From NCBI GenBank assembly GCA_037143235.1, contig JBAWZC010000005.1, forward strand, positions 1-63,833: a stretch of 63,833 bases of DNA, written 5' to 3'. Source of the stretch: Candidatus Berkelbacteria bacterium. Its GTDB lineage: Bacteria; Patescibacteriota; UBA1384; XYA2-FULL-43-10; 1-14-0-10-43-13. Positions 324 to 63,833 of the stretch are shown one piece after another; the stretch's first letter is position 1, and each line of letters starts with the position of its first letter. Under the pieces are notes generated by a model. It saw only the letters and a list, made by a program, of their open reading frames with translations. It ran no database searches and had not been told where the DNA came from. Made by a program: the position numbers and the translations under genes.

Positions 324-1904
324 ATGCTAAAATATTTCATCTATTGTAGGAAGTCGTCAGAAGACGAGGAACGACAAATTTTGTCTATTGAGGCCCAGCT
401 CCAAGAACTTCGAGATTATGCCAAACAAAACTCTCTTTTTGTAATCAAAGAATTTTTTGAAAGTCGAACGGCAAAGGAGCCGGGCCGACCTATATTTAAT
501 CAAATGCTTTCTGAGATAGAAAAAGGCAACGCTTCGGGAATTTTAGCATGGAATCCCGATCGTTTAGCTAGAAATAGTATTGATGGTGGAAAAGTAATTT
601 ATCTTGTAGATACTCAAAAAATTACTTCGCTAAAGTTCCCGACCTTTTGGTTTGACACCACGCCTCAAGGCAAATTTATGCTAAGCGTTGCCTTTGGCCA
701 AGCCAAATATTACACCGACAATTTAAGAGAAAACATTTTGCGTGGAATTAGGCAAAAGTTAAGGCGTGGAGAATTACCGGCAAAAGCTCCTCTCGGTTAT
801 TTTAATGAACCCCGACTAAGAACTATCGAATCAAACAAAACTACTTTTAGCAAAATGAAAAAGATATTGGAGCTTTTTGCCGAGGGCAACCACACCTTAA
901 CTCAAATAAGAGACAAAATGTTTTCTCTTGGCTTGGTTGGCAAAAATGGAGAACCTTTGCATTTATCCACAATAGGCAATATTTTAACCAATCCTTTTTA
1001 CTATGGAATGTTTTTATATCGTGGCGAACTAATGCAAGGTTCTCATAAGCCAATGATTTCCAAAAAACTTTTTGACAAAATTCAAATAGCAATTCACGAC
1101 AATGGCAAGCCCCGCAAAAACATAATCAAAAGAACTCCACTTTTTTACAACTTTGCTCGTTGTGGAGATTGCGGCTATATGATGACAGCAGAGAAGAAAC
1201 GCAAACCTTCAGGAAGAGAATATATTTATTATCGTTGCACCCACAAAAGTAAAGTAAAAAAGTGCAATCAACATAAGTTTTTGCGGGAGGAAAACTTGCA
1301 TGAGCAAATAATTGAACATTGTCAAAAAGTTTCTATTCCTGACGAGTGGAAGGATAAATATCTGGCGAAAGTTGAAGAATGGGAGAATAAACAAAACGAC
1401 TCGTCAGGAATTTTCGCTCAAAATCTTAAAGACAAACTAACTAAAGTAAAAGAGAGAATCAATCGGCTTATTGATTTACATTTAGACGGAGAAATTGAAC
1501 TTGACGAATTTAAACAAAAGAAAAACATCTTAGTTGAACAAAAAGCCGATTTGGAAAGTAAATTAAATGATTTTGAGCGAAAAGGAAATCATTGGCTCGA
1601 ACTCCTAAAATCTTGGATTTTAGATGCCAACCAAGCAGGAAATCTTGCCAATACAAAAAATTTCTTCGGAATGAAGAATTTTTTGAAAACCGTCGGCTCG
1701 AACCGCATTTTACTGGACGGAAATTTGAAAATGAATTTTGAAAAACAATACAATTTACTCTACAATTTGCCAGCCGAAGCGCGAGCCTTTGGCTCGCGCG
1801 AGGCGGCTTCCGAACAAGTAAATACATTATGGTGGAGGTGGAGGGAGTTGCACCCTCGTCCGAAAGGTCAAAAACATAAAATCTACAGGTTTATTCGCAA
1901 TTGA
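324..1904 (+). CDS. Large serine recombinase (resolvase catalytic domain, recombinase domain, zinc ribbon, coiled coil)
   Basis: N-terminus YCRKSSEDEERQILSIEAQ...LAWNPDRLARN is resolvase-like. A CGDCGYMM...YYRC zinc ribbon is followed by a long coiled coil. The last ~70 codons read through IR-R and then antisense into the tmRNA 3' end (WWRWRELHPRPKG...). Confidence 0.85.
   Translation: MLKYFIYCRKSSEDEERQILSIEAQLQELRDYAKQNSLFVIKEFFESRTAKEPGRPIFNQMLSEIEKGNASGILAWNPDRLARNSIDGGKVIYLVDTQKITSLKFPTFWFDTTPQGKFMLSVAFGQAKYYTDNLRENILRGIRQKLRRGELPAKAPLGYFNEPRLRTIESNKTTFSKMKKILELFAEGNHTLTQIRDKMFSLGLVGKNGEPLHLSTIGNILTNPFYYGMFLYRGELMQGSHKPMISKKLFDKIQIAIHDNGKPRKNIIKRTPLFYNFARCGDCGYMMTAEKKRKPSGREYIYYRCTHKSKVKKCNQHKFLREENLHEQIIEHCQKVSIPDEWKDKYLAKVEEWENKQNDSSGIFAQNLKDKLTKVKERINRLIDLHLDGEIELDEFKQKKNILVEQKADLESKLNDFERKGNHWLELLKSWILDANQAGNLANTKNFFGMKNFLKTVGSNRILLDGNLKMNFEKQYNLLYNLPAEARAFGSREAASEQVNTLWWRWRELHPRPKGQKHKIYRFIRN
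1700..1835. repeat. IR-R: right copy of the 136-bp inverted repeat
   Basis: Reverse complement of 49..184. It lies inside the 3' end of the recombinase ORF and includes the last 6 nt (CCACCA) of the tmRNA. Palindrome GCGCGAGCC-TTT-GGCTCGCGC at 1779..1799. Confidence 0.9.
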
Positions 1905-2214
1905 GTTTTTTCGGGTAATAGCTTACACGCGACCAACACACTATTACCTTATCCCTGGTAATTCTTAGCCCTGTGCCCCAAGAAAGAACACAAAACGCAT
2001 CTAAGATATGACGCTCCGATCTCTTCGCTTAGATCAAAGAGGGAACGGCTGCGGGTTTAGGCGACAGCTAGCGAGAAAGTAGGGGCTGCAAAAGCAGTCT
2101 TTACCTTCTCAAAAAGTGATTTTACACTTAGGATTTTGTCAGTTTTTAAAGTGACCAACGCACTTACCTGCAATATGTTTTCAAGGTTCCTTCCGTCGAA
2201 ACTGTATCACCCCC
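1830..2214 (-). ncRNA. ssrA: tmRNA (transfer-messenger RNA)
   Basis: The reverse complement starts GGGGGTGATACAGTTTCGACGG (E. coli: GGGGCUGAUUCUGGAUUCGACGG). It ends TTTCGGACGAGGGTGCAACTCCCTCCACCTCCACCA (E. coli: UUUCGGACGCGGGUUCAACUCCCGCCAGCUCCACCA). Acceptor stem GGGGGUG/CACCUCC has a G3:U pair. The candidate tag frame ends ...GCA GCC CCT ACT TTC TCG CTA GCT GTC GCC TAA (..AAPTFSLAVA*). Confidence 0.9.
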
Positions 2215-3276: not shown

Positions 3277-3503
3277 GTCATTCCTGCGAAGGCAGGAATC
3301 TAGTAATTATTTAGCATTCGGATATGTTCTCCTTGGCGCTTACGCGCCAACAGGATTCCCGCTCATCGAGTCTGAGTCTGAGGGCTCTTCCCTCAGAGTC
3401 GAATGACCTTCGCAGGAATGACAAAAAGAAAGAGGTGAGGAACGAACGACAGAATGTTCTGTCATTGCGAGGAGTCTGCGACGCGGCAATCTATCATTTA
3501 GTC
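3277..3503. repeat. Cluster of GTCATT-type palindromic mini-elements
   Basis: GTCATTCCTGCGAAGGCAGGAATCTAG at 3277..3303. GGATTCCCGCTCATCGAGTCTGAG...CTCAGAGTCGAATGACCTTCGCAGGAATGAC at 3353..3422. GTCATTGCGAGGAGTCTGCGACGCGGCAATCTATCATTTAGTC at 3461..3503 is identical to 43671..43713. Confidence 0.9.
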
Positions 3504-4400: not shown

Positions 4401-4439
4401 AAAAAATCCCCATTGTCTCCTGATTGTGGGGATTTTTTT
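4401..4439 (+). terminator. Rho-independent terminator after the HTH-Hsp20 gene
   Basis: AAAAAATCCCCA...TGGGGATTTTTTT hairpin followed by a T-run. Confidence 0.7.
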
Positions 4440-4905
4440 GTAGTTATACGCTTATGTCATTTCCGTCATCTCAATCCCAGATAGCCCTGCACTTTTGTCG
4501 TCTCGACTCCCCGTCCTGCCCGCATTGCTACGCAAAGCGTTGCAGGCGGGAGGGGGCGGAGAGATCTTTTGTGCTAAGAGATCCTTCGATAAACTCAGGA
4601 TGACACTGCGTGTCAGATTTCTCCACGGAGCCTGCCATGAGCGAAGCCGAATGGGGTCGAAATGACAACGGATAATGCCCAATCGCAATGACAATTTGGT
4701 CTGTCGTTTCTATTTTCCCCTCTGCCATTCCCGCCTCTCCTGTCATTCCTGCGTAGGCAGGAATCTAGTGACAATATTAATTTTAAGATACGGTTTGCTA
4801 CGCGCTTACGCTGTAATGGGATTCACGCCTGCGCGGGAATGACAAAATTAGCTTACAAGTCTTTGCACTTACGGGCTTAAACACTTAAACACTTAAACAC
4901 TGTCT
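4440..4905. repeat. Non-coding repeat hotspot (several palindromic element families plus an 8-bp tandem repeat)
   Basis: A 102-bp element at 4742..4843 has GTCATTCCTGCG...CGCGGGAATGAC termini. CCCCGTCCTGCCCGC...GCAGGCGGGAGGGGG palindrome lies at about 4510..4556. CTTAAACA x3 lies at 4876..4901. The only ORFs are repeat-derived. Confidence 0.85.
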
Positions 4906-4993
4906 ATCTTGCTAGCTTTCTCAACAGTTGACCTAGCACCACGAAAGATGATATTATCACCAAGGTGCCAAAATTATTATAGGAGGTACGGAA

Positions 4994-5176
4994 TTGGGAG
5001 TAATGTTTTCCGAGGAAATGTTTCCCGGTGAAAAAGTCCGAAAAATGGACGGCAGCGCTGCTGCTGTCTACAGCTTCCCCAAAGAGAGGAAGCGACAACC
5101 CAAGAAGGTTGAATTGCTAGAGTGCAATCAACCAATCACCGCCAGCGTGGAATCAATTATTGATTCTCGCGATTAG
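4994..5176 (+). CDS. Small hypothetical protein (60 aa, TTG start)
   Basis: AGGAGG at 4981..4986 lies 7 nt upstream of the TTG at 4994. A hairpin (GATGCCCGGC...GCTGGGCATC) follows at about 5186..5212. No recognisable domain. Confidence 0.35.
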   Translation: MGVMFSEEMFPGEKVRKMDGSAAAVYSFPKERKRQPKKVELLECNQPITASVESIIDSRD

Positions 5177-5242
5177 CGAACAAAGATGCCCGGCTGTTCA
5201 AGCTGGGCATCGCACTGCAAAATTATTATCCCTATATATATC

Positions 5243-5271
5243 AAAAAACCATTCGTAAAGAATGGTTTTTT
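5243..5271. terminator. Bidirectional hairpin terminator downstream of tRNA-Val
   Basis: AAAAAACCATTC-GTAAA-GAATGGTTTTTT. Confidence 0.7.
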
Positions 5272-5273
5272 GA

Positions 5274-5350
5274 TGGTGCGCCCAAGAGGACTCGAACCTC
5301 TGACCTCTACAATGTCAATGTAACGCTCTAACCAACTGAGCTATGGGCGC
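5274..5350 (-). tRNA. tRNA-Val (anticodon GAC), CCA encoded
   Basis: The reverse complement GCGCCCATAGCTCAGTTGGTTAGAGCGTTACATTGACATTGTAGAGGTCAGAGGTTCGAGTCCTCTTGGGCGCACCA folds as a cloverleaf. The anticodon loop is TTGACAT. Confidence 0.95.
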
Positions 5351-5598
5351 ATTTCATATTACTCGCTCCGGACAACAAGAAAATACTACCAAATTATCGT
5401 GATTTTATCAATCATTGGATTTCTGAAGAAATTATTCACTGTCTTATTAGTTAATATTACTTTCTGGAAAAAGCGGGTTTGTTTATCATATTTTTTGGGT
5501 TAGAATAAGGTTAACAAAACAAAAACAAACCACAACCCGAGCGCTTACTGGCGCTTTTTTATACTCGCGGGTGCGTGGAAGCTAATTAAGGAAGAAAT

Positions 5599-6024
5599 AT
5601 GAAACTAAAAGTTAAAAAACTTCATCCAGATGCCAAGGTGCCACAGTACATGATTGGCGGCGATGCTGGGCTTGATCTGTTTTCTGTCGAAGATGTTATT
5701 ATTAAGCCAGGGCAGCGTCACGCCGTCGCAACTGGACTGGCGCTAGAGTTGGAACCGGGTTTCGTTTCGCTGATCTGGGACAAGAGCGGCATCGCACTGA
5801 AAAAGGGGATTAAAACAATGGGTGGCGTGATCGAACACACTTATCGTGGTGAGTACAAAGTTATCATGGTCAATCTATCTGATCAGGAATATATCATTGC
5901 CAAAGGTGACAAGATCGCCCAGCTACTGATCCAACCGATCGTCACGGCTGAGATAACGGAGATGGAAGAATTGAGCGATACAGCTCGAGGATCCGGTGGT
6001 TTTGGGTCAGGGGGAGTGCGCTAG
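5599..6024 (+). CDS. dut: dUTP diphosphatase
   Basis: Trimeric dUTPase motifs: GDAGLDL, a GERIAQL-like KGDKIAQLL, and a C-terminal RGSGGFGSGG. Confidence 0.9.
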   Translation: MKLKVKKLHPDAKVPQYMIGGDAGLDLFSVEDVIIKPGQRHAVATGLALELEPGFVSLIWDKSGIALKKGIKTMGGVIEHTYRGEYKVIMVNLSDQEYIIAKGDKIAQLLIQPIVTAEITEMEELSDTARGSGGFGSGGVR

Positions 6025-6121
6025 CATAAGTCAGGTTCTGGAAATGGAAATCATATTAGCATTATTAGGGAAATATAGTCATTAGCTAATTTTTTGGTCA
6101 AGGAGTGGGAGAAAGAAATCA

Positions 6122-6760
6122 ATGTTGGAAAAAGACAATCAAAATTCATCTAAGCAAGGAAGGATTTCGTGGGACGAATTTTTTATGCGTATGGCCGTTA
6201 CTGCGGCGTCAAGAACTGCTTGTTTGTTGGTTAAGGCCGGTTCTGTTTTTGTAGACGAAGATCACAGAGTTGTTTCAATTGGTTATAATGGCCCGACTGC
6301 TGGTGACTACCATTGTAACGAAGTCGGTTGTGCTAAAATACATGGCGATCCAGTTACGGGAGAGCTCCAGCGTTGTCGTGGTGCCCACGGTGAAATGAAT
6401 GCGATTGTAAACAGTGGCAATACAGAAAGACTCAAAAATTCGACTCTTTATGTAACAGCTTTTCCCTGTTGGGATTGCATGAAAGTTCTAAATAATTTGG
6501 GCGTAAGAAGAATTGTTTATTTGCAAGACTACGCTCGAACTATCGAGGGTAGCAAAGGAGAAGTCAAAGTGATTGAAGACGAGGCCAGAGAATTGGCCGG
6601 CCGTCGTGGTATTGCGATCGAAAAATTTCGCGGGAACTTGGGTGGTCTGACTATTTTTCAAGAAGACAAAGAGGTAATCAGGCAGATGTTCCAGCGACCC
6701 GGCAAGGATCACGAGGTCAAGGATGGCACAAAGAAATCAGCCAAGTTAATCAAGAAATAA
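6122..6760 (+). CDS. Deoxycytidylate (dCMP) deaminase, ComEB-like, with a C-terminal extension
   Basis: Zinc-deaminase motifs H(G)EMNAI and PCWDC. It sits between dut and thyA. Confidence 0.8.
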   Translation: MLEKDNQNSSKQGRISWDEFFMRMAVTAASRTACLLVKAGSVFVDEDHRVVSIGYNGPTAGDYHCNEVGCAKIHGDPVTGELQRCRGAHGEMNAIVNSGNTERLKNSTLYVTAFPCWDCMKVLNNLGVRRIVYLQDYARTIEGSKGEVKVIEDEARELAGRRGIAIEKFRGNLGGLTIFQEDKEVIRQMFQRPGKDHEVKDGTKKSAKLIKK

Positions 6761-14377: not shown

Positions 14378-15568
14378 TTATTTTTTAAATGAAATCTTGT
14401 CTAACATACGCCAGCGGCGTTCTTTTTCGGCCCAAGGAATTGGGTCGCCGAGAGCAAAAGCGGCAGTCCCTTCTCTTGGAGAGTACTTGTTGTTGAAAGC
14501 TTGAGCAAAATCAACTTTTTTCAGAATTGCTGCAGTTGCCCGAAAATCTTCCTCAGACTCTCCGGGGAAGCCGACAATTGTATCAGTAGTTAATATTATT
14601 TCTGGAATCGCTCTTTGTATTTTTTCAACTAAAGCAATATATTGTTCGATCGTATATGGTCGATTCATCGCCTTCAAGATTTTATTACTACCTGACTGAA
14701 AGGGCAGATGAATTTCCTTGGCAATTTTTGGTAGGCTGGCGATCGCTTCGATGATATCGTCACTCATATCCTTTGGATGGTTACTGGTGAATTTGATCAC
14801 GAAATCGCCAGATAGATCATTGAGTTTTTTAAGCAAAATTGCAAAATCATTTTTTGTTTTTTTATTTGTCATTCCGAGGTTGAGACTTCCTCCCCTGCCC
14901 GAGGGGAGGTTAGGTGGGGTGGGAGCAGGTGATCCATTAGTAGATTTGTGGATTCCCGCCTGCGCGGGAATGACAGAAGAGAAGGAGGGAATGACAGATA
15001 TTTTTGACGGGCTGTACGAATTAACATTTTGGCCCAAAAGAACAATCTCTTTTTGTCCCGAGGCGATCATTTTTTCTGCATCAGCAATAATATCGGCCAT
15101 TGGCCTCGAAACCTCTCTGCCTCGCGTGTAGGGGACCGCACAGTATGAACAGAAGTTGTTACACCCTTTCATAATTGGAATGTAGTTAGTTTTTAGTGGG
15201 TAGCTGGTAGTTTTTAGCAAAGTAGCTTTTGCACCAATAATTTTAGCTAGTTCGTCTAAGTGTTCGCCATCCCATATCTGGACGCCTTTTTTCAAGAATT
15301 TTGGTCGATCGTCTGGAAGGATACAGCCGGCCAATATAATTTTTTTGCCACTCCAGTTTTTGACCCAACTCATCGCTCTGTCAACTGCCGTTTTGCGAAC
15401 AGAACAGTTCAATAAAATGATCAGGTCGGCATCTTTTTCGCTTGATTCGATCAGTCCAAGATTCTTCAAAATGTATGCAATCCTTGCCCCATCCCATTCG
15501 TTATACTGACAACCAAGGATTTTGATAAAAAAACTTGAAGGTGATATTTTGTCGGCGTGTTCTTGCAT
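14378..15568 (-). CDS. MiaB-family radical-SAM methylthiotransferase with a repeat-derived insertion and no TRAM domain
   Basis: MTTase N-domain, CNNFCSYC radical-SAM cluster, LLGQNVNSY and FTSNHP motifs. A ~45-50 aa insert (..VIPSFSSVIPAQAGIHKSTNGSPAPTPPNLPSGRGGSLNLGMTNKK..) is encoded by GTCATT-type repeats. Confidence 0.85.
   Translation of the reverse strand: MQEHADKISPSSFFIKILGCQYNEWDGARIAYILKNLGLIESSEKDADLIILLNCSVRKTAVDRAMSWVKNWSGKKIILAGCILPDDRPKFLKKGVQIWDGEHLDELAKIIGAKATLLKTTSYPLKTNYIPIMKGCNNFCSYCAVPYTRGREVSRPMADIIADAEKMIASGQKEIVLLGQNVNSYSPSKISVIPSFSSVIPAQAGIHKSTNGSPAPTPPNLPSGRGGSLNLGMTNKKTKNDFAILLKKLNDLSGDFVIKFTSNHPKDMSDDIIEAIASLPKIAKEIHLPFQSGSNKILKAMNRPYTIEQYIALVEKIQRAIPEIILTTDTIVGFPGESEEDFRATAAILKKVDFAQAFNNKYSPREGTAAFALGDPIPWAEKERRWRMLDKISFKK
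14868..14996. repeat. GTCATT-type palindromic repeat block inside the MiaB-family CDS
   Basis: GTCATTCCGAGG...CCTCCCCTGCCCGAGGGGAGG...TGGATTCCCGCCTGCGCGGGAATGAC...GGGAATGAC. The same motifs occur at intergenic loci 38978..39048, 40946..41016 and about 4510..4556. Confidence 0.85.
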
Positions 15569-35194: not shown

Positions 35195-35335
35195 GTCGAT
35201 TGCCCTCTCTCCTGTCATTCCCGCCTCTCCTTCTGTCATTCCAGCGAAGGCTGGAATCCAGTCAAGATAAACTCCAGTAGGAATCTACAAACAGATTTTT
35301 CTTCTGGATTCCTGCTTTCGCAGGAATGACAAAGA
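35195..35335. repeat. GTCATT-type palindromic element cluster upstream of uvrA
   Basis: GTCATTCCCGCC..., GTCATTCCAGCGAAGGCTGGAATCCAG...GGAATCTACAAACAG...TGGATTCCTGCTTTCGCAGGAATGAC. Confidence 0.85.
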
Positions 35336-38977: not shown

Positions 38978-39048
38978 GTCATTCCCGCGCAGGCGGGAAT
39001 CTACAAATAGTGAATCTTTTGGTGGATTCCCGCCTGCGCGGGAATGAC
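38978..39048. repeat. 71-bp composite palindromic element, orientation A
   Basis: GTCATTCCCGCGCAGGCGGGAATCTA-CAAATAGTGAATCTTTTGG-TGGATTCCCGCCTGCGCGGGAATGAC. Confidence 0.95.
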
Positions 39049-40329: not shown

Positions 40330-40813
40330 GTTTCGAAGTTGCCAATAAGCCAGGTTCTGTTCCTCGTGTTTTACGACGAGCCGATAGCTATCTATCTACG
40401 CGTGGAGACCAGACGGTGCCCTCTCGAGTAGAGAGTTGGCATAGTTGGTCCACTCCACTTGCACCAAGCGAGGCTTGCCACAGATGTATGTCGCCATACA
40501 AACGCGTGAGCTCTTACCTCACGATTTCAACCTTACCTGCGCGGAGCGCAGAAGCACCAAATTCCAAGATACAAATCCCAGGAAATACTCAAATTACAAT
40601 TTTCAAATATTCAATTATTTGAATTTTGGTGATTGGAATTTAACTGGTTATTGTCACTTGGTTATTGGTTATTCCGTGCTCCGCACATCGGCGGTATATT
40701 TTCTGTTGCGCTATTCTTGAATCTCGCAACCCACTCATTTCCACGAGCGCTTCACTCTACGGTGCCTGGACTTTCCTCTCCCGAAGGAGCAGCTATCTAG
40801 ACAACTTCGAAAC
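40330..40813 (-). ncRNA. rnpB: RNase P RNA, bacterial type A, with a greatly expanded P12
   Basis: The reverse complement has GAGGAAAGTCCAGGCACC, ACAGAAAATATACCGCC, GGTAAGGTTGAAA, AGAGCTCACGCG and ACAGAACCTGGCTTAT in canonical order. P1 is GTTTCGAAGTTG / CAACTTCGAAAC. An AT-rich helix of about 158 nt (40539..40696) sits where E. coli P12 has about 20 nt. Confidence 0.9.
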
Positions 40814-40945: not shown

Positions 40946-41016
40946 GTCATTCCCGCGCAGGCGGGAATCTACCAAAAGATTCATTATTTGTGGATTCCCG
41001 CCTGCGCGGGAATGAC
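40946..41016. repeat. 71-bp composite palindromic element, orientation B (inverted relative to 38978..39048)
   Basis: The arms are the same. The spacer CCAAAAGATTCATTATTTG is the reverse complement, with 1 mismatch, of the spacer at 39004..39022. Confidence 0.95.
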
Positions 41017-41145
41017 AAAGTGAAAACAAAAATAATTGTGATGTTGTAACAAAACAAAAAAATTCAAATTATCATTTTTTTCGCATTTTTGTCGTAAATA
41101 GAATAAAATAAAGAAGTAGGGCAAACCAATAAAGAAATGAGGTAA

Positions 41146-41919: not shown

Positions 41920-41925
41920 TATCAG

Positions 41926-42064
41926 CCAGCACAGATTACAGATCGACACGGATTGATAACACAGATAAATCCAGCACAGATTACAGATTGACACTGATTG
42001 ATAGCCCAAAATATGTACTATTAATCTGTAGTAATCTGTATAAATCTGTAATCTGTGTTGCTGC
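41926..42064. repeat. Cargo-less inverted array of CACAGATTACAGAT motifs
   Basis: The left half has CAGCACAGATTACAGAT x2 plus variants. The right half has ATCTGTAGTAATCTGTATAAATCTGTAATCTGTG. The same motif flanks the GxxExxY gene. Confidence 0.85.
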
Positions 42065-43558: not shown

Positions 43559-43670
43559 AAATGCCCATTTAATATTATTATGTGATTATTATATCGAAAC
43601 CTGCATCTAAACAAAAGGTGATGGATGATTTTTCTTGATTTTTCATTTGCCGATTACTCTTTACTTGTTT

Positions 43671-43868
43671 GTCATTGCGAGGAGTCTGCGACGCGGCAAT
43701 CTATCATTTAGTCATTGGCCGTTCTCGGCAAGCTCGAACCATAATTTTCAGAGTATCTCTTCTATTTTATTCTTCGAGACCTGAAATGTCCCCTTTGGGG
43801 TGGGTCTGCGAGTCAAGAAGTAATGATGGATTGCCACGCTTTGGAAAACCCAATAGCTCGCAATGACA
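43671..43868. repeat. GTCATTGCGAG-type palindromic elements
   Basis: 43671..43713 is identical to 3461..3503. 43832..43868 is the inverted partner of 61190..61238 (GTCATTGCGAGCTATTGGGTTTTCCAAAGCGTGGCAATCCATCATT). Confidence 0.9.
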
Positions 43869-44596: not shown

Positions 44597-44760
44597 ATGG
44601 TCATCCCACAGCACAGATTACAGATCTACACAGAATTACAGATACAAGCAGGGCCAGCACAGATTACGGATTATACGCCAACACAGATTACAGATTTCAC
44701 AGAATTACAGAAGATAAAAATCAGACCAATGCAGATCGGACAGATTGATAGAGATCAATG
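44597..44760. repeat. Array of CACAGATTACAGAT-type motifs (left flank of the GxxExxY cassette)
   Basis: At least 6 copies or variants (CACAGATTACAGAT, CACAGAATTACAGA, CACAGATTACGGAT) with irregular spacing. Confidence 0.85.
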
Positions 44761-45164: not shown

Positions 45165-45320
45165 TGCTTCAAAAATGTTTTCAATCAGTAAATCAGTACG
45201 ATCTGTAATCTGTGCTGGCCTAATTTTTATTTTCTGTAATTCTGTATGATCTGTAATCTGTGTTGTTGGTGTTGTTATGTTCTGTAAATCAGTAAGATCT
45301 GTAATCTGTGTTGACTACGA
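45165..45320. repeat. Inverted array of the same motif (ATCTGTAATCTGTG), right flank of the cassette
   Basis: At least 5 copies or variants in the orientation opposite to 44597..44760. Confidence 0.85.
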
Positions 45321-46190: not shown

Positions 46191-46423
46191 ACTATCATTG
46201 TATCACGCTATGAGCGCGATAAAAAGTTGATAAATGCGAGATGTTTTTTGTAGTGGGAGAAGTAACATGGTCATAGAAAAATTAAAACCAAATTTGTGTT
46301 GACAAATTATTGAGATTAATCTATTGTTGGATTAACAAGATGCTTGGGACAAATCCCAGTGGGAAAGTTTCGACCGTTCGGGTCAGGCTACCGAGCAATC
46401 TGACCTCGAGAAATCGGGGTTTT

Positions 46424-46972
46424 TTATTTTCCGATTATTACAATGATTTTTTTCTGAAGTTTTTTGTAAAATTTTGTAAATCGTACTTCGGGCTTTTTCT
46501 TATCAAAATACGATCTTGATAGTCCGGCCACCATATCCGCGATCCTTATTCCAGCAGATTGACTATCTTTGACTGTTTTAAGTTTTTTGACTGATATGCT
46601 CTTGCCGCGCAAGATATTCTTAATTTTATTTTCGTACCATTTGGGTTTCTTGCCGTCGATGTAAATATTTCTTATATTTCTTTCGACAATAGTGTGTAAT
46701 AAGATTTTTTCCAGCTCAGCTGCAGGATCAACAGGATTTTTAACTACTGCAATTTTGACCTTAAAGTCGAGTTTCAGTGTTTCATTCATAAATTTTTCTT
46801 TGACACTCCAAACCGTCTCTGCCCAGTGAAAAGAGTCAATTTCTAAATCTTTTTCTATTTCAATAATTTTCTTTTCTATCTCTGGATAATCGTCGAACTC
46901 TACATAAGCCAAAGCAAAGGTTGAGTGATCAACCCTTTTGTGAATCCCAGATTCGTCAATAAAAATCATCAT
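46424..46972 (-). CDS. DUF3800-like protein
   Basis: The N-terminal MMIFIDESGIHK plus FHWAE resemble the DUF3800 signature. Confidence 0.5.
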   Translation of the reverse strand: MMIFIDESGIHKRVDHSTFALAYVEFDDYPEIEKKIIEIEKDLEIDSFHWAETVWSVKEKFMNETLKLDFKVKIAVVKNPVDPAAELEKILLHTIVERNIRNIYIDGKKPKWYENKIKNILRGKSISVKKLKTVKDSQSAGIRIADMVAGLSRSYFDKKKPEVRFTKFYKKLQKKIIVIIGK

Positions 46973-61059: not shown

Positions 61060-61303
61060 GAATTACAAGTTGCCGTTTGTCATTCCGGACTCGATCCGGA
61101 ATCCCGTCACAGCGTAAGCGTGTAGCAGAACGCATCTTAACGCTAATAATATTACTAGATTCCTGCCTGCGCAGGAATGACAAAACAATTCGTCGTTGCG
61201 AGCTATTGGGTTTTCCAAAGCGTGGCAATCCATCATGTATTGTAAATGATAGATTGCCGCGCCTGCCTGCCGGTAGGTAGGTCGCCGACTCCTCGCAATG
61301 ATA
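61060..61303. repeat. Cluster of GTCATT-type elements
   Basis: GTCATTCCGGACTCGATCCGGAATCCCGTCAC, GATTCCTGCCTGCGCAGGAATGAC, 61190..61238 and 61244..61303 (inverted copies of the 43.7-43.9 kb elements). Confidence 0.9.
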
Positions 61304-61383
61304 GGCAGTTTGAGAATATCAAAAAGAAAATAATAAATTTATCAGCTTAAACACTGACTAGCTTAAACACTTACCAGCTGTTT

Positions 61384-61440
61384 GGCTAGCTCCTGCTTGC
61401 CCCGCGTAGCGTCAGCGAAGTGGGGACTCCTTGCTTTCTA
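61384..61440. repeat. Intergenic copy of the trmD-internal repeat
   Basis: GCTAGCTCCTGCTTGCCCCGCGTAGCGTCAGCGAAGTGGGGACTCCTTGCTTTCTA. It abuts the Nudix stop codon. Confidence 0.85.
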
Positions 61441-61848
61441 TAGTACTACTTGTTGGAAATCAATCGTTTTGAGTTTGTCGAAGGGTCTAATATTTTTTGG
61501 CAAGCAAATGATTTCATTAAACTTGGTTTCGTCGACAAAACAATATGGCAGTTCGTGTTTTGGAGATAAAGGGATTGTTTCGTCGATCTTACCTACAAAA
61601 AAGAGCTCGATCTGTCGGACGCCGTCAGTAAAAGTGAGATCTTGTACAAAGGCAATTTCTCCGACAGTGGCTGTATATCCGGTTTCTTCAAAAATTTCCC
61701 GTTTGACGGCATCAATAGTTCGTTCGCCCTCCTCGATTCCGCCGCCGGGATATGACCAGTGATCAGCTCTCTCCTGAACCAAAAGAAGCTTATTTTTGTC
61801 GTTCTTGATAATGCCTTTGACTGATATTCGCAATTTATATTTACTCAT
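61438..61848 (-). CDS. NUDIX hydrolase
   Basis: Nudix box PGGGIEEGERTIDAVKREIFEETGY. Confidence 0.85.
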   Translation of the reverse strand: MSKYKLRISVKGIIKNDKNKLLLVQERADHWSYPGGGIEEGERTIDAVKREIFEETGYTATVGEIAFVQDLTFTDGVRQIELFFVGKIDETIPLSPKHELPYCFVDETKFNEIICLPKNIRPFDKLKTIDFQQVVL

Positions 61849-61936
61849 CGTGACTTTTTAATGGTTTGTCTCTGGTAATCATAGCGTAATATTGATTTTT
61901 TGACTACTGCAGGTAGGATGAGAAGAGCAATTTGAA

Positions 61937-62488
61937 ATGGGCGGGTTTAGATACATGACAAGGCAGACAATCAACAAAATTCAAATCACTCTATCAATCA
62001 TTATATTTCTATATATTGCTCTTTTTGCGATTAATAAGATCTTTGCCGATGACATTTATCAGATCGGCCGTGATCCATACAAGATCGTGCAAAGGATCGA
62101 TGATCGTTACCTTCTGGTTGTGACGGCAGAAAATAAGTATTTTTTGCTGGATCCAAGTTTGTGGGCGCGTAAGACATATGCATTGAGTGATTTTCAGGAC
62201 GAAGTTGCGACTTGTGATTTTGATAGTCGATATATTTGCTTGACAGGAGTCACTGCTGTCCACGCCAAGGAGCTGGTCGTGATCGAAAAAAGAAATTTCA
62301 AACCAGTGGTGATCGGCGATGACATTATCTTGATCTCTGATGTGCCGAAGTTTGATTTATACAATTGCGACAAAATATCTGAGTGCAAAATTGCCAATTA
62401 TTACCGCAATTATGACCAAGACCCTTTGCAAGATATGATCTCGGAGGTGTATTTTTACGACAAAGGAAAATTTATTGTGACAAAATAG
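61937..62488 (+). CDS. Hypothetical membrane-anchored protein
   Basis: 183-aa ORF with one N-terminal TM helix. Confidence 0.4.
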   Translation: MGGFRYMTRQTINKIQITLSIIIFLYIALFAINKIFADDIYQIGRDPYKIVQRIDDRYLLVVTAENKYFLLDPSLWARKTYALSDFQDEVATCDFDSRYICLTGVTAVHAKELVVIEKRNFKPVVIGDDIILISDVPKFDLYNCDKISECKIANYYRNYDQDPLQDMISEVYFYDKGKFIVTK

Positions 62489-62538
62489 ACTGCCTTCGCT
62501 GTCATTCCAGTTGCCCTTATAATTCCGAACCCATGCGT

Positions 62539-62662
62539 GTCATTCCTGCGGAGGCAGGAATCTAGAAACGGTATTAGCCTTAAGATGTGTTTTCCTTGGC
62601 GCTTACGACCCAAAGGGTCCCCTTCGGGGCTGTGACAGGATTCCTGCCTGCGCCGGAATGAC
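62539..62662. repeat. 124-bp MITE-like element with GTCATTCCTGCG...CGCCGGAATGAC termini
   Basis: Its internal segment TTAGCCTTAAGATGTGTTTTCCTTGGCGCTTACG is shared with 3311..3345 and 4783..4811. Confidence 0.9.
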
Positions 62663-62704
62663 AAATTACGATAATCAAATAATTAATATTATTTAAAGAC
62701 AAAC

Positions 62705-63223
62705 ATGAACGACAATTTAAAAAAATTTATCCTGATAGTCTTGGTCGTCGGCTTGGCCGCAGCTGCTCTAATTTTTTGGGCGGGCAGAACCAAGGCACCG
62801 ACGACCGAAAACAAATCACAGAATGCTGAAACAAATAGTTCGCAGTCGAGTGTCAGCGCGCAGAGTGTTAGCGTCAGCCAATCGAGTTTATCATCACAAA
62901 GTGAAAGTGTGGGTTCGACTTCATCAGCTGCTGGTATCGATCCAGTTGCACTCGCTAAATATATGACAGCACAAGGTATGACTCTTTATGGTGCGTATTG
63001 GTGCCCGCACTGCAAAGATCAAAAGGCGCTTTTTGGGGATGCACTTCAGTATGTAAAATATGTTGAATGCGACGATGCTGGACCAAGCGCACAACCAGGT
63101 ATATGCGCCGCTGAAGGGATTACTGGTTATCCAACATGGAGATTTCAAGGTAAATCGTATCCCGGATCAAAAACATTCTCGGAGCTCGCAACGATCGTCG
63201 GCTATACTCAGTTAGGCAACTAA
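62705..63223 (+). CDS. Membrane-anchored thioredoxin-fold protein (the type normally fused to VKOR)
   Basis: N-terminal TM helix, Ser-rich linker, then LYGAYWCPHCKDQKALFG...YVECD...GITGYPTW. Confidence 0.7.
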   Translation: MNDNLKKFILIVLVVGLAAAALIFWAGRTKAPTTENKSQNAETNSSQSSVSAQSVSVSQSSLSSQSESVGSTSSAAGIDPVALAKYMTAQGMTLYGAYWCPHCKDQKALFGDALQYVKYVECDDAGPSAQPGICAAEGITGYPTWRFQGKSYPGSKTFSELATIVGYTQLGN

Positions 63224-63512
63224 CCTGAGCTTCTGTCTATCGTGGCTGGGGAAAACTCATGATGACTTACACGAATTGCATTCGGATAGGCGATGATCAT
63301 ATAGTGATAATACTAGCTCTGGTAAAAGATAATGAGATTTGTAGATCTCGAAATATATTTTTCAGATAGATCAGAAAAATTGATTGTGCTTGACAAGAGG
63401 GCTTTAGCCTCAATACAATAGATAGTGTTGTACTTGTTAAGGCTGATTATTCTTAATTCAAGAGGTTTTGAGAGTAACAGCGACAAAATACTCACGAAGG
63501 GAGGTGATTGAA

Positions 63513-63662
63513 ATGGCAGTAGAAGGATACTGTGTTAAATGCCGAGCCAAGAAAGAAATGCAGGGCGCAGAGCAAATAACCATGAAAAATGGCAAACCAG
63601 CTGTAAAAGGCACTTGCCCTGATTGTGGCACTAAAATGTTCAAAATTGGCAAGGCTGCTTAG
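63513..63662 (+). CDS. DUF5679-like small zinc-ribbon protein
   Basis: SD GGGAGGTG lies upstream. MAVEGYCVKCRAKKEM...GTCPDCGTKMFKIGKA. Confidence 0.65.
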   Translation: MAVEGYCVKCRAKKEMQGAEQITMKNGKPAVKGTCPDCGTKMFKIGKAA

Positions 63663-63697
63663 TTCTTGTTAGTAAGTTTTTTTGTTTTTGATGCAGG

Positions 63698-63724
63698 GCG
63701 TCTCGAATTTCGAGGCGCTTTTGC
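63698..63724 (+). terminator. Rho-independent terminator
   Basis: GCGTCTCGAA-TTT-CGAGGCGC followed by TTTT. Confidence 0.6.
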
Positions 63725-63833
63725 ATTTTGTACCCGTCATTCCTGCGAAGGCAGTTCTCCATAAAGTCGAACCATAACATTAATAACTTCACGTAATTCG
63801 TCCGGACTCTGTCCGGCGATGGATAGGGTATCC

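What the first reader, a model, noticed from the sequence alone, without database searches (positions are those of the whole stretch)
14868..14996. About 130 bp of palindromic repeat elements inserted in-frame in an essential-type MiaB-family gene
The methylthiotransferase ORF stays open across a block built from the same GTCATTCC...GGAATGAC and CCTCCCC..GGGGAGG modules that fill intergenic regions.

The block is translated as ..SVIPSFSSVIPAQAGIHKSTNGSPAPTPPNLPSGRGGSLNLGMTNKK.. It lies between LLGQNVNSY and the DFAILLKKL...FTSNHP block, where homologs have only a short loop. My estimated boundaries give 129 bp, a multiple of 3.

This mirrors Rickettsia palindromic elements (RPEs), which insert in-frame into protein-coding genes. 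I am not aware of it being described for this repeat family.
Basis: partly seen in the sequence, partly recalled or inferred. Interest (0 to 1): 0.7.

Follow-up and report, generated by a model that had tools for sequence, protein, structure and literature searches.

The report
Hairpin repeat translated inside tRNA-modification gene
A mobile-looking hairpin DNA repeat of a known, widespread family sits in frame inside a tRNA-modifying enzyme gene of an ultra-small (Patescibacteria) bacterium, where it should add a floppy surface loop, and the same spot has been hit again and again in related bacteria.

Summary
The gene at 14378-15568 (-) encodes a 396-aa MiaB/RimO-family radical-SAM methylthiotransferase. 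It is intact but lacks a TRAM domain. A repeat-built block lies between GQNVNSY and DFAILL and reads through without a stop.

The block is 128 nt between its GTCATTCC/GGAATGAC ends and 138 nt with its 13-nt inverted ends. The gene carries 159 nt more here than its shortest orthologues.

The hairpin GTCATTCCCGCGCAGGCGGGAATC matches exactly the core of the Neisseria NTS/dRS3 repeat. That repeat belongs to the "CGTC-tagged REP" superfamily, which also holds Rickettsia RPE-4 and RPE-6. Twelve further NTS-like heads in the window are all intergenic.

AlphaFold2 models a confident MiaB fold with residues 192-234 disordered.

Among 119 Patescibacteria orthologues, 44 have a 2-aa linker at this site and 75 have inserts of up to 63 aa. 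Many inserts are visibly repeat-derived, and they are scattered patchily on the tree. All 14 insert-bearing DNA loci I examined are in frame.

The Rickettsia analogy therefore holds. In-frame copies of this superfamily were already described in 2013. The new points are the phylum and the recurrent hot spot. I found no mobilising enzyme in the window.

The parts
14378..15568 (-). MiaB/RimO-family radical-SAM methylthiotransferase gene, 396 aa, with UPF0004 and Radical_SAM domains and no TRAM domain
   Evidence: called as one 396-aa gene. All invariant Cys (C55, C82, C136, C140, C143) and the GQNVNS motif are present. Foldseek's top hits are MiaB 7MJV/7MJW, TM 0.75.
14849..15013 (-). 55-codon linker (residues 186-240) between GQNVNSY and DFAILL. 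Insert-free orthologues have 2 codons here.
   Evidence: Residues 192-234 have pLDDT of about 41 while the core is above 90.
14863..15000 (-). Repeat element with its 13-nt inverted ends (TATTTGTCATTCC / GGAATGACAGATA), 138 nt or 46 codons. Removing it in silico leaves SPSKKKTKN, a Lys-rich 9-aa linker like those of relatives. A-runs flank both ends.
   Evidence: I1. Read from the sequence. Compare P0120 TTNKKTKIKNKS. As RNA the linker folds to -44 kcal/mol, z = -3.4.
14951..14974 (-). NTS/dRS3-type hairpin GTCATTCCCGCGCAGGCGGGAATC (8-bp stem, 4-nt loop), read as VIPAQAGI
   Evidence: Exact match to the NTS core motif and to the SRM regular expression. The stretch 14944-14975 is 32/32 identical to the intergenic copy at 40986-41017.
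14975..14995 (-). 21-nt 'leader' half-head GTCATTCCCTCCTTCTCTTCT (VIPSFSS) in front of the NTS
   Evidence: The same double head occurs in the intergenic copy at 35214-35242 (D9, 64) and in the miaB inserts of P0005 and P0002.
14889..14925 (-). Second hairpin CCTCCCC-N7-GGGGAGG followed by GGTGGGG (read as PPNLPSGRGG). It is unique in this window.
   Evidence: The NTS plus this module recur as a composite in 10 metagenome contigs of other taxa.
14868..14875 (-). Tail GGAATGAC on the coding strand, read GGA ATG AC (G-M-T). This is one of the two phases that avoid its internal TGA.
38978..39048 (.). Intergenic 71-nt head-to-head NTS dimer, the closest resident relative of the in-gene hairpin. 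A second copy lies at 40946-41016.
   Evidence: D6, 87% identical. Intergenic by the gene calls.
35214..35330 (.). Intergenic element with the same leader + NTS ... inverted-NTS layout. Other intergenic family members lie at 3277-3422, 4742-4843, 61079-61181, 62501-62662 and 63736 onward.
   Evidence: Intergenic by the gene calls.

Best explanation
A composite, non-autonomous hairpin repeat of the (C/T)GTC-tagged REP / NTS-dRS3 / 'Ssn-related motif' family has inserted into the coding sequence of a TRAM-less MiaB-family methylthiotransferase in a Patescibacteria (Berkelbacteria-like) genome.

What the sequence shows:
- The element has a leader half-head, an NTS hairpin, a spacer, a CCTCCCC/GGGGAGG hairpin and an inverted GGAATGAC tail.
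- It lies in an A-rich stretch that codes a short Lys-rich loop just after the GQNVNSY motif. AlphaFold2 places that motif at the end of a strand of the radical-SAM domain.
- Its phase is stop-free: the head reads GTC ATT CCC and the tail reads GGA ATG AC.
- The gene therefore stays intact.

What is inferred:
- The gene is most likely translated into a working enzyme with about 46-53 extra residues forming a disordered surface loop.
- The insert is best seen as tolerated selfish DNA, not as a functional module.
- This loop is one of the few places where the enzyme tolerates extra residues. Insertions of several hairpin-repeat families and of short tandem repeats therefore accumulate, persist and turn over there across Patescibacteria.
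- Spread of the element probably goes through single-stranded hairpin DNA handled by an enzyme supplied in trans (an Ssn-type GIY-YIG nuclease or another), and/or through recombination with resident copies. This last step was not shown here.
For: - Intact gene and exact in-frame read-through.
- Exact NTS core. There are 13 NTS-like heads in 64 kb, and the 12 others are intergenic.
- The in-gene hairpin is 32/32 identical to an intergenic copy. In a related genome (L084) the in-gene hairpin carries that genome's own variant, GTCATCCCAGCG(A/C)AGGCTGGGATCC, which is also found in its intergenic copies.
- AlphaFold2: mean pLDDT 84.6, core above 90, residues 192-234 about 41. The fold matches MiaB. 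B. uniformis MiaB has only about 10 residues at this point.
- Of 119 orthologues, 44 have a 2-aa linker, 5 have 3-9 aa, 33 have 10-21 aa (K/N-rich) and 37 have 22 aa or more. Of those 37, 27 show peptides encoded by GTCAT heads or ATGAC tails.
- In 20 Patescibacteria DNA loci found by tblastn, all 14 inserts (36-165 nt) are multiples of 3 and stop-free.
- Insert types are patchy on a neighbour-joining tree of the core, next to insert-free sisters.
- Closely related pairs share inserts but differ by gain or loss of single units.
- A threonyl-tRNA synthetase gene in another Patescibacteria genome carries an 8-aa in-frame hairpin insert of the same tag type.
- Literature: CGTC REPs include dRS3 and RPE-4/6 and occur in frame in genes (PMC3733652). 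NTS hairpins are cut as ssDNA by SsnA (PMC11893778).
Against: - There is no transcript, proteome or enzymatic evidence that the protein is made or active.
- No GIY-YIG/Ssn gene or transposase is in the 64-kb contig or in any fetched locus, so the mobilising activity is unknown.
- The insert lies just after a motif that I take from memory to be a SAM-contacting motif on the active-site face of the barrel, so an effect on function cannot be excluded.
- The nearest orthologue is only 59% identical, so the age of this particular insertion cannot be dated.
- Protein databases and tblastn favour intact genes, so the in-frame count is somewhat biased.
- Inserts in related pairs are about as conserved as the core. 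That could mean some constraint on them.
Confidence: 0.75

Rival explanations
1. The extended loop is functional. Patescibacteria MiaB has lost its RNA-binding TRAM domain. The enlarged loop, often Lys/Asn-rich, has been recruited to contact tRNA or a partner, with repeats serving as raw material.
For: - All 119 orthologues lack TRAM.
- 75 of 119 have an enlarged loop, while 59 non-Patescibacteria loci have 3-9 codons.
- The 10-21-aa class is 23% Lys and 13% Asn.
- Inserts persist between orthologues with 70-88% core identity and are about as conserved as the core.
Against: - 44 of 119 orthologues do without any loop, interleaved on the tree with insert-bearers.
- Insert sequences are unrelated between lineages and follow the resident repeat families, not a protein motif.
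- The window's own insert is Pro/Ser/Gly-rich, not basic, and is predicted disordered.
- Conservation can equally come from DNA-level hairpin constraints or from homogenisation with other copies.
Confidence: 0.12
2. One ancient insertion in an ancestor of these Patescibacteria has since diverged, been overwritten and been lost many times. Under this reading there were not many independent insertions.
For: - Related pairs clearly inherit inserts.
- P0001, P0002 and P0005 share the layout S-VIPxxxS-VIPAxAGI in the same phase.
Against: - At least four unrelated element types occupy the site, in both orientations and several phases: NTS; GTCATTTCGAC/GTCATCTCGAG types; the CCCCTCC hairpin; and 7-nt tandem arrays.
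- The in-gene hairpin matches each genome's own variant.
- The double head is a feature of the element itself, since it is also seen in intergenic copies.
- A second site (after residue ~116) and another gene (thrS) are also hit.
Confidence: 0.08
3. It is an artefact or a dead gene: either a mis-assembly through a repeat, or a pseudogene whose frame is open by chance.
For: - The contig is a short-read metagenome assembly (k141).
- The element is open in 2 of 6 frames, so an open frame alone is not very improbable.
Against: - Both flanks belong to the same gene in the same frame, with every invariant residue kept.
- Most of the block (14849-14943) is unique, and only 32 nt are shared with other copies, well below the assembler's k-mer.
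- Independent assemblies from other samples show equivalent inserts at the same site.
Confidence: 0.04

Closest known systems
CGTC-tagged REP superfamily, including Neisseria dRS3/NTS and 'Ssn-related motifs' (Di Nocera et al. 2013, PMC3733652; Ssn paper 2025, PMC11893778)
   Same: - The 24-nt core is identical to the NTS core.
- It has an unpaired GTC tag 5' of an 8-bp stem and a 4-nt loop.
- It is multi-copy and mostly intergenic, with head-to-head dimers.
- It clusters with other repeat modules.
- Intragenic translated copies are already reported for the superfamily.
   Different: - The tag is TGTC in 12 of 13 copies, not CGTC.
- The host is a Patescibacteria genome, a phylum not covered in either paper.
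- No Ssn/GIY-YIG gene is found nearby.
- The element here is a longer composite with a leader half-head and a second, unrelated hairpin.
Rickettsia palindromic elements (RPE; 'selfish DNA in protein-coding genes', Ogata et al. 2000, cited from memory and through PMC3733652)
   Same: A palindromic repeat inserted in frame in housekeeping genes, compatible with the fold because it lands in a surface loop. The host has a reduced genome. According to PMC3733652, RPE-4 and RPE-6 carry the same CGTC tag.
   Different: - I made no direct sequence comparison with the RPE families.
- Here one loop of one enzyme is hit repeatedly by several families across a whole radiation.
- Expression of the decorated protein has not been shown.
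Bacterial MITEs that insert in frame (for example the Coxiella QMITEs of PMC5896051, or Nezha; both only listed or cited inside PMC3733652, not read here)
   Same: A short non-autonomous element with inverted ends, strong secondary structure and occasional read-through in coding regions.
   Different: - No parent insertion sequence is present.
- There is no clear target-site duplication, only flanking A-runs.
- The ends are themselves REP-type hairpins, not transposase-binding inverted repeats.
MiaB (tRNA ms2i6A37 methylthiotransferase; B. uniformis structures 7MJV-7MJZ)
   Same: It has the N-terminal UPF0004/MTTase domain with three Cys, the radical-SAM CxxxCxxC motif, and a predicted fold at TM 0.75.
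   Different: - It lacks the C-terminal TRAM domain (the profile match ends at 359 of 429).
- It scores below the MiaB equivalog cut-off (297 against 355 bits).
- It has a 55-residue loop where B. uniformis MiaB has about 10 residues.

Membership tests
CGTC-tagged REP / NTS-dRS3 / SRM repeats | Short stem-loop (6-9 bp stem) with a conserved unpaired (C)GTC tag at one end | tested here: met
   GTCATTCCCGCGCAGGCGGGAATC matches the published NTS core exactly at 5 places. The published SRM expression (HGTC...) matches 6 copies against 0.2 in shuffles. The tag is TGTC in 12 of 13 copies.
CGTC-tagged REP / NTS-dRS3 / SRM repeats | Many copies per genome, mainly intergenic, often as head-to-head dimers | tested here: met
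   There are 13 NTS-like heads in 64 kb, 12 of them intergenic. Head-to-head dimers lie at 38978-39048 and 40946-41016.
CGTC-tagged REP / NTS-dRS3 / SRM repeats | Genome encodes an Ssn-type GIY-YIG nuclease, often flanked by the repeats | tested here: inconclusive
   None is found in the 64-kb contig by Pfam gene calls or by a motif search, and none in the fetched loci. The rest of the genome was not available.
CGTC-tagged REP / NTS-dRS3 / SRM repeats | Hairpin is bound and cut as single-stranded DNA by Ssn | not testable with these tools
   This needs a biochemical assay.
Rickettsia palindromic elements (RPE) | In-frame, stop-free insertion in a conserved protein-coding gene | tested here: met
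Rickettsia palindromic elements (RPE) | Insert lies in a surface loop compatible with the fold | tested here: met
   In the AlphaFold2 model the core is above pLDDT 90 and the insert (192-234) is about 41 with no secondary structure. The insert sits between strand 174-178 and helix 241-250.
Rickettsia palindromic elements (RPE) | Sequence similarity to a named RPE family | not tested
   No RPE sequences were at hand. The link rests on PMC3733652, which assigns RPE-4/6 and dRS3 to the same CGTC superfamily.
Rickettsia palindromic elements (RPE) | Decorated protein is expressed | not testable with these tools
   No transcript or proteome data were available.
MITE | Terminal inverted repeats plus target-site duplication and a related autonomous insertion sequence | tested here: inconclusive
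   A 13-nt inverted repeat is present. The flanks are A-runs, so a duplication cannot be called. No transposase is in the window.
MiaB/RimO radical-SAM methylthiotransferases | UPF0004 domain with three Cys, and a radical-SAM CxxxCxxC motif | tested here: met
   (C20, C55, C82; C136, C140, C143).
MiaB/RimO radical-SAM methylthiotransferases | C-terminal TRAM RNA-binding domain | tested here: not met
   There is no TRAM hit. The TIGR00089 match ends at profile position 359 of 429, and the ORF ends three residues after the matched region. The same holds for all listed orthologues.

The most novel reading that the evidence does not exclude
In Patescibacteria, REP-type hairpin repeats and short tandem repeats may be a general, ongoing source of new protein loops. 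They would land repeatedly at a few permissive 'landing pads' in core enzymes. The sites seen here are the loop after GQNVNSY and the interdomain linker of MiaB, plus a loop of ThrRS. Some of these loops may have been recruited for function, for example as a basic tRNA-contacting appendage that compensates for the lost TRAM domain. If so, selfish hairpin DNA would be a major shaper of proteomes in the largest uncultivated bacterial radiation.
Probability: 0.12. Interest if true: 0.7.

Novelty: new member of a known kind. Interest (0 to 1): 0.45.

Why it matters
- It extends 'protein-coding palindromic repeats', so far known mainly from Rickettsia, Wolbachia and a few Proteobacteria, to Patescibacteria.
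- It shows that an exact Neisseria-type NTS hairpin is resident in a very distant, reduced genome.
- The MiaB loop is a natural experiment. Dozens of independent or inherited inserts at one structurally defined site can be used to study how enzymes tolerate selfish DNA and how REP-type elements choose and leave sites.
- The same loci could test whether Ssn-type nucleases mobilise these elements.
- On the practical side, such inserts inflate protein lengths and create spurious antisense ORFs and 'hypothetical' peptides in metagenome annotation.

Tried and rejected
- **Peptide search.** I searched the protein database with the 44-aa insert peptide to find other decorated proteins. The search returned no candidates (one search was a parameter error), so it gave no information.
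- **Ssn/GIY-YIG search.** I looked in the window and in all fetched loci by motif expressions, by the Pfam gene calls for the whole contig, and by a lenient Pfam scan of unannotated ORFs next to repeats. Nothing was found.
- **L055.** I suspected that locus L055 ended at the insertion site because of a repeat. It is insert-free and the contig simply ends further on.
- **Palindromic empty site.** I considered that the empty site (AAT TCA TAT GAA TT) is itself a palindromic target. It is a perfect palindrome in only 1 of 6 empty sites, so I dropped the idea.
- **CCTCCCC module.** I checked whether the CCTCCCC/GGGGAGG module is a resident repeat of this window. It is not. It does travel with NTS elsewhere.
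- **Rfam.** No family covers the element.
- **Intron, intein or RNA-level removal.** I rejected these because the block is short, lacks the hallmarks of such elements, and is kept open in every orthologue.
- **Supplements.** The supplements of the Ssn paper are not held. The supplement of PMC3733652 does not list MiaB or ThrRS.
Full report
**1. What is in the sequence**

The minus-strand ORF 14378-15568 encodes 396 aa. The public assembly calls it as a single gene on ENA contig ERZ27300156 k141_70728 (64,005 bp). Its neighbours are housekeeping genes: thrS, glyA, folA, thyA, trmD, rpsP, uvrB, priA and rplY.

Pfam finds UPF0004 (residues 13-94) and Radical_SAM (130-346). NCBIfam TIGR00089 (MiaB/RimO family) scores 321 bits against a cut-off of 251, in two stretches. 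The MiaB equivalog scores 297 bits, below its cut-off of 355. No TRAM domain is found, and the profile match ends at position 359 of 429.

Homologues come from Patescibacteria and Berkelbacteria metagenome bins. The best is 59% identical.

It lies between GQNVNSY (179-185) and DFAILL (241-246).

**2. The repeat is real and non-random**

GTCATTCC occurs 21 times against 2.0 expected. The hairpin ATTCCCGC-N4-GCGGGAAT occurs 5 times against 0 expected. These motifs bound about ten elements of 71-162 nt.

The public gene calls cover the whole contig, and a stop-to-stop frame map agrees. By both, every element except the one at 14868-14995 is intergenic.

The in-gene block has these features:
- It has 57% G+C, against 42% for the window.
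- It has 13-nt inverted ends (14863-14875 / 14988-15000), an 8-bp/4-nt hairpin at 14952-14971 and an 8-bp/5-nt hairpin at 14889-14909.
- As RNA the linker folds to -44 kcal/mol, z = -3.4.

Three sizes apply. It is 128 nt between the GTCATTCC/GGAATGAC motifs, not 129. It is 138 nt (46 codons) with the inverted ends. The gene has 159 nt (53 codons) more than orthologues with the 2-codon linker.

Read directly, removing 14863-15000 would leave AGC CCG TCA AAA AAA AAA ACA AAA AAT. That encodes SPSKKKTKN, a Lys-rich linker like those of several relatives (for example TTNKKTKIKNKS in P0120). So the element appears to sit in an A-run of an already slightly extended loop. This is an inference.

**3. 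Identity of the repeat**

A literal search of the literature for the DNA string led to the Ssn paper (PMC11893778). That paper makes these points:
- The Neisseria Transformation Sequence (NTS) is CGTCATTCCCGCGMAVGCGGGAATCYRG. It embeds dRS3 (ATTCCC-N8-GGGAAT).
- A degenerate 'Ssn-related motif' (SRM) is found in many bacteria, including Wolbachia and Rickettsia.
- The GIY-YIG nuclease SsnA cuts the hairpin as single-stranded DNA.

The window holds five exact matches to the 24-nt NTS core, one of them inside miaB on the coding strand. It holds eight more with 1-3 mismatches. The published SRM expression hits six copies against 0.2 in shuffles.

Di Nocera et al. 2013 (PMC3733652) defined a superfamily of 'CGTC-tagged' REPs. 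It includes dRS3 (CGTC-1) and R. conorii RPE-6 and RPE-4. They noted that head-to-head dimers predominate and found no dedicated transposase. They also reported intragenic, translated copies in several phyla, including clusters encoding 43-82 aa.

In-frame copies of this kind are already known. Neither paper covers Patescibacteria. The supplement of PMC3733652 does not list MiaB. Further searches found nothing on REPs in this phylum.

**4. Architecture**

On the coding strand the element reads as follows:
- a leader half-head, GTCATTCCCTCCTTCTCTTCT;
- the NTS hairpin;
- a spacer;
- CCCCACCTAACCTCCCCTCGGGCAGGGGAGG;
- a tail, CTCGGAATGAC.

The leader + NTS 'double head' is part of the element. 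It is also present in intergenic copies (35214-35258; remnants at 4725 and 40924) and in the miaB inserts of P0005 and P0002.

A scan of metagenome contigs for NTS + CCTCCCC-hairpin composites returned 10 contigs with 48-63% G+C. Two carry the sequence GCCGTCTGAA, which I recognise from memory as the Neisseria DNA uptake sequence. One (L090) has the same layout of leader heads, NTS, second hairpin, GGTGGGG and GGGAATGAC tail. So the composite is a recurrent association across distant taxa.

**5. The protein**

All invariant residues of the family are present, including the six cluster cysteines and GQNVNS.

AlphaFold2 with 119 sequences gives mean pLDDT 84.6 and pTM 0.83. The core is above 90. 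Residues 192-234 are at about 41 with no secondary structure. They lie between strand 174-178 and helix 241-250.

Foldseek's best hits are the B. uniformis MiaB structures, with TM up to 0.75. By sequence alignment, B. uniformis MiaB has about 10 residues at this point.

The element is stop-free in 2 of its 6 frames, the one used and its antisense. The open antisense frame explains the spurious ORF at 14718-15131 (+).

**6. The site is a hot spot**

In an alignment of 119-120 orthologues, nearly all length variation falls between Y185 and D241. The linker lengths are distributed as follows:

| Linker length | Orthologues | Note |
|---|---|---|
| 2 aa | 44 | insert-free |
| 3-9 aa | 5 | |
| 10-21 aa | 33 | 23% Lys, 13% Asn |
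| 22-63 aa | 37 | 27 show head- or tail-encoded peptides |

The head- and tail-encoded peptides include VIPAKAGIQ, VISTHREPTAGWIERGEKSH, DSRLHGNDK and PEDD. Others contain SPPLRGGVGGG. The fragment P0104, which was left out of the 119-sequence alignment, has a 77-aa linker.

At the DNA level I split the query into halves and ran tblastn, so gene calling played no part:
- All 20 Patescibacteria loci are in frame.
- All 14 inserts among them (36-165 nt) are multiples of 3 and stop-free.
- 59 loci from other phyla have 9-27 nt at this point.

The insert DNAs fall into several types: NTS (L018), an SRM dimer (L013), GTCATTTCGAC/GTCATCTCGAG hairpins (L001, L004, L019), CCCCTCC hairpins (L002, L008), or A-rich 6-7-nt tandem repeats (L003, L012, L017).

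On a neighbour-joining tree of 326 core columns, insert types are scattered among insert-free sisters.

Related pairs (70-88% core identity) share inserts that are 61-88% identical. They also differ by single-unit gains or losses. One example is the NTS head present in P0025 but not in P0067. Another is a nested 13-aa piece in P0007 relative to P0077.

In L084, a syntenic relative, the in-gene hairpin is that genome's own variant, which is also present in its intergenic copies. In the window, 32 of 32 nt of the in-gene hairpin equal the intergenic copy at 40986-41017.

Together these results argue for repeated insertion, inheritance and turnover from resident repeat populations, filtered by selection for an open frame.

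Two further observations suggest the process is wider:
- A second, weaker hot spot lies after residue ~116, the interdomain linker. There, 19 orthologues have inserts of 6 aa or more (12 listed), several with repeat-like peptides.
- A thrS gene in another Patescibacteria genome (L011) has an 8-aa in-frame insert that is a TGTCAT-tagged hairpin. It is absent from two orthologues.

**7. Mechanism and what remains open**

Shown:
- the anatomy of the element;
- the in-frame phase;
- the intact catalytic motifs;
- the predicted disordered loop;
- the hot spot;
- the match to each genome's own repeat variant.

Inferred:
- translation and activity of the protein;
- neutrality of the insert;
- the route of insertion.

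I found no Ssn/GIY-YIG gene or transposase in the contig or in any fetched locus. The rest of the genome could not be examined.

The functional-loop rival (compensation for the lost TRAM domain) is not excluded. It is weakened by the 44 insert-free orthologues and by the lack of any conserved peptide.

**8. Verdict**

The novelty claim is overstated, because the kind of event, and even the superfamily, are already described.

Two things are new, as far as the held literature shows. One is the occurrence in Patescibacteria. The other is the recurrent use of one loop of MiaB by several repeat families. I rate it a new member of a known kind, of moderate interest.

Noticed in passing
window 14378-15568 and all 119 orthologues: The Patescibacteria MiaB-family proteins (core about 335 aa) lack the C-terminal TRAM RNA-binding domain. 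The neighbouring gene is a convergent glycoside hydrolase, so no separate TRAM gene lies next to it.
   Followed up: partly
L011 5805-5829 (thrS, 4422-6179 minus): A threonyl-tRNA synthetase gene of another Patescibacteria genome carries an 8-aa in-frame insert (RSRSRVGA) that is a TGTCATCCCGTGCCCCGACACGGGATC hairpin. The insert is absent from the window's ThrRS and from L084's ThrRS.
   Followed up: yes
MiaB orthologues, after window-protein residue ~116: There is a second insertion hot spot in the linker between the UPF0004 and radical-SAM domains. 19 orthologues have inserts of 6-48 aa there (12 listed), several with repeat-like peptides such as GLDPESRKILKQ, EQSEESQ and SPPLGG. The window's protein has no insert at this site.
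   Followed up: partly
window 40330-40809 (-): The RNase P RNA (class A, 151 bits) is 480 nt against a 367-position model. About 134 nt of A/T-rich extra sequence, containing AATAACC-like repeats, sits in one hairpin loop (between model positions 136 and 137), which I take to be P12. An NTS dimer lies just beside the gene at 40946-41016.
   Followed up: partly
window 324-1904 (+), 1830-2214 (-), 85-105 and 1779-1799: A 526-aa ORF that by eye resembles a large serine recombinase (not scanned against Pfam) runs into the 3' end of the tmRNA gene. It is bracketed by two identical 21-nt hairpins (GCGCGAGCCTTTGGCTCGCGC). This may be a small integrated element at the tmRNA gene.
   Followed up: partly
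window 3460-3503 and 43670-43713: Two 44-nt copies, 100% identical, of another TGTCAT-tagged hairpin (TGTCATTGCGAGGAGTCTGCGACGCGGCAATC...). Both are intergenic. This is a second SRM-like family in the same genome.
   Followed up: no
window 41920-42063, 44602-44712, 45183-45316: Intergenic arrays of 7-8-nt units (ACAGATT / ACAGAATT) and a 48-nt tandem repeat (2.6 copies). Similar 7-nt arrays (CAGAATA, AGGATTC) make up part of the miaB loop inserts in L004, L012 and L019.
   Followed up: partly
window 14718-15131 (+): A 137-aa antisense ORF is open only because the palindromic element is also stop-free on the opposite strand (VIPRLRLPPLPEGRLGGVGAGDPLVDLWIPACAGMT). It is likely a spurious ORF of the kind that seeds 'hypothetical protein' entries.
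   Followed up: yes
L087, L088 (metagenome contigs): The same NTS + CCTCCCC-hairpin + GGGGTGGGG composite occurs in contigs carrying GCCGTCTGAA, which I recognise from memory as the Neisseria DNA uptake sequence. The pairing of these two modules is therefore shared between very distant bacteria.
   Followed up: partly
window 46332-46405 (+) and 46424-46972 (-): A DUF3800-II RNA (Rfam RF02961, 61 bits) lies next to a DUF3800 protein gene.
   Followed up: no
window 61079-63833: Three unannotated or weakly annotated small genes are each separated by NTS composite elements, giving a repeat-gene-repeat layout. They are a NUDIX gene at about 61.4-61.8 kb, and ORFs at 61937-62488 and 62705-63223 (the latter with a weak thioredoxin-like hit). 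None is a GIY-YIG protein.
   Followed up: partly
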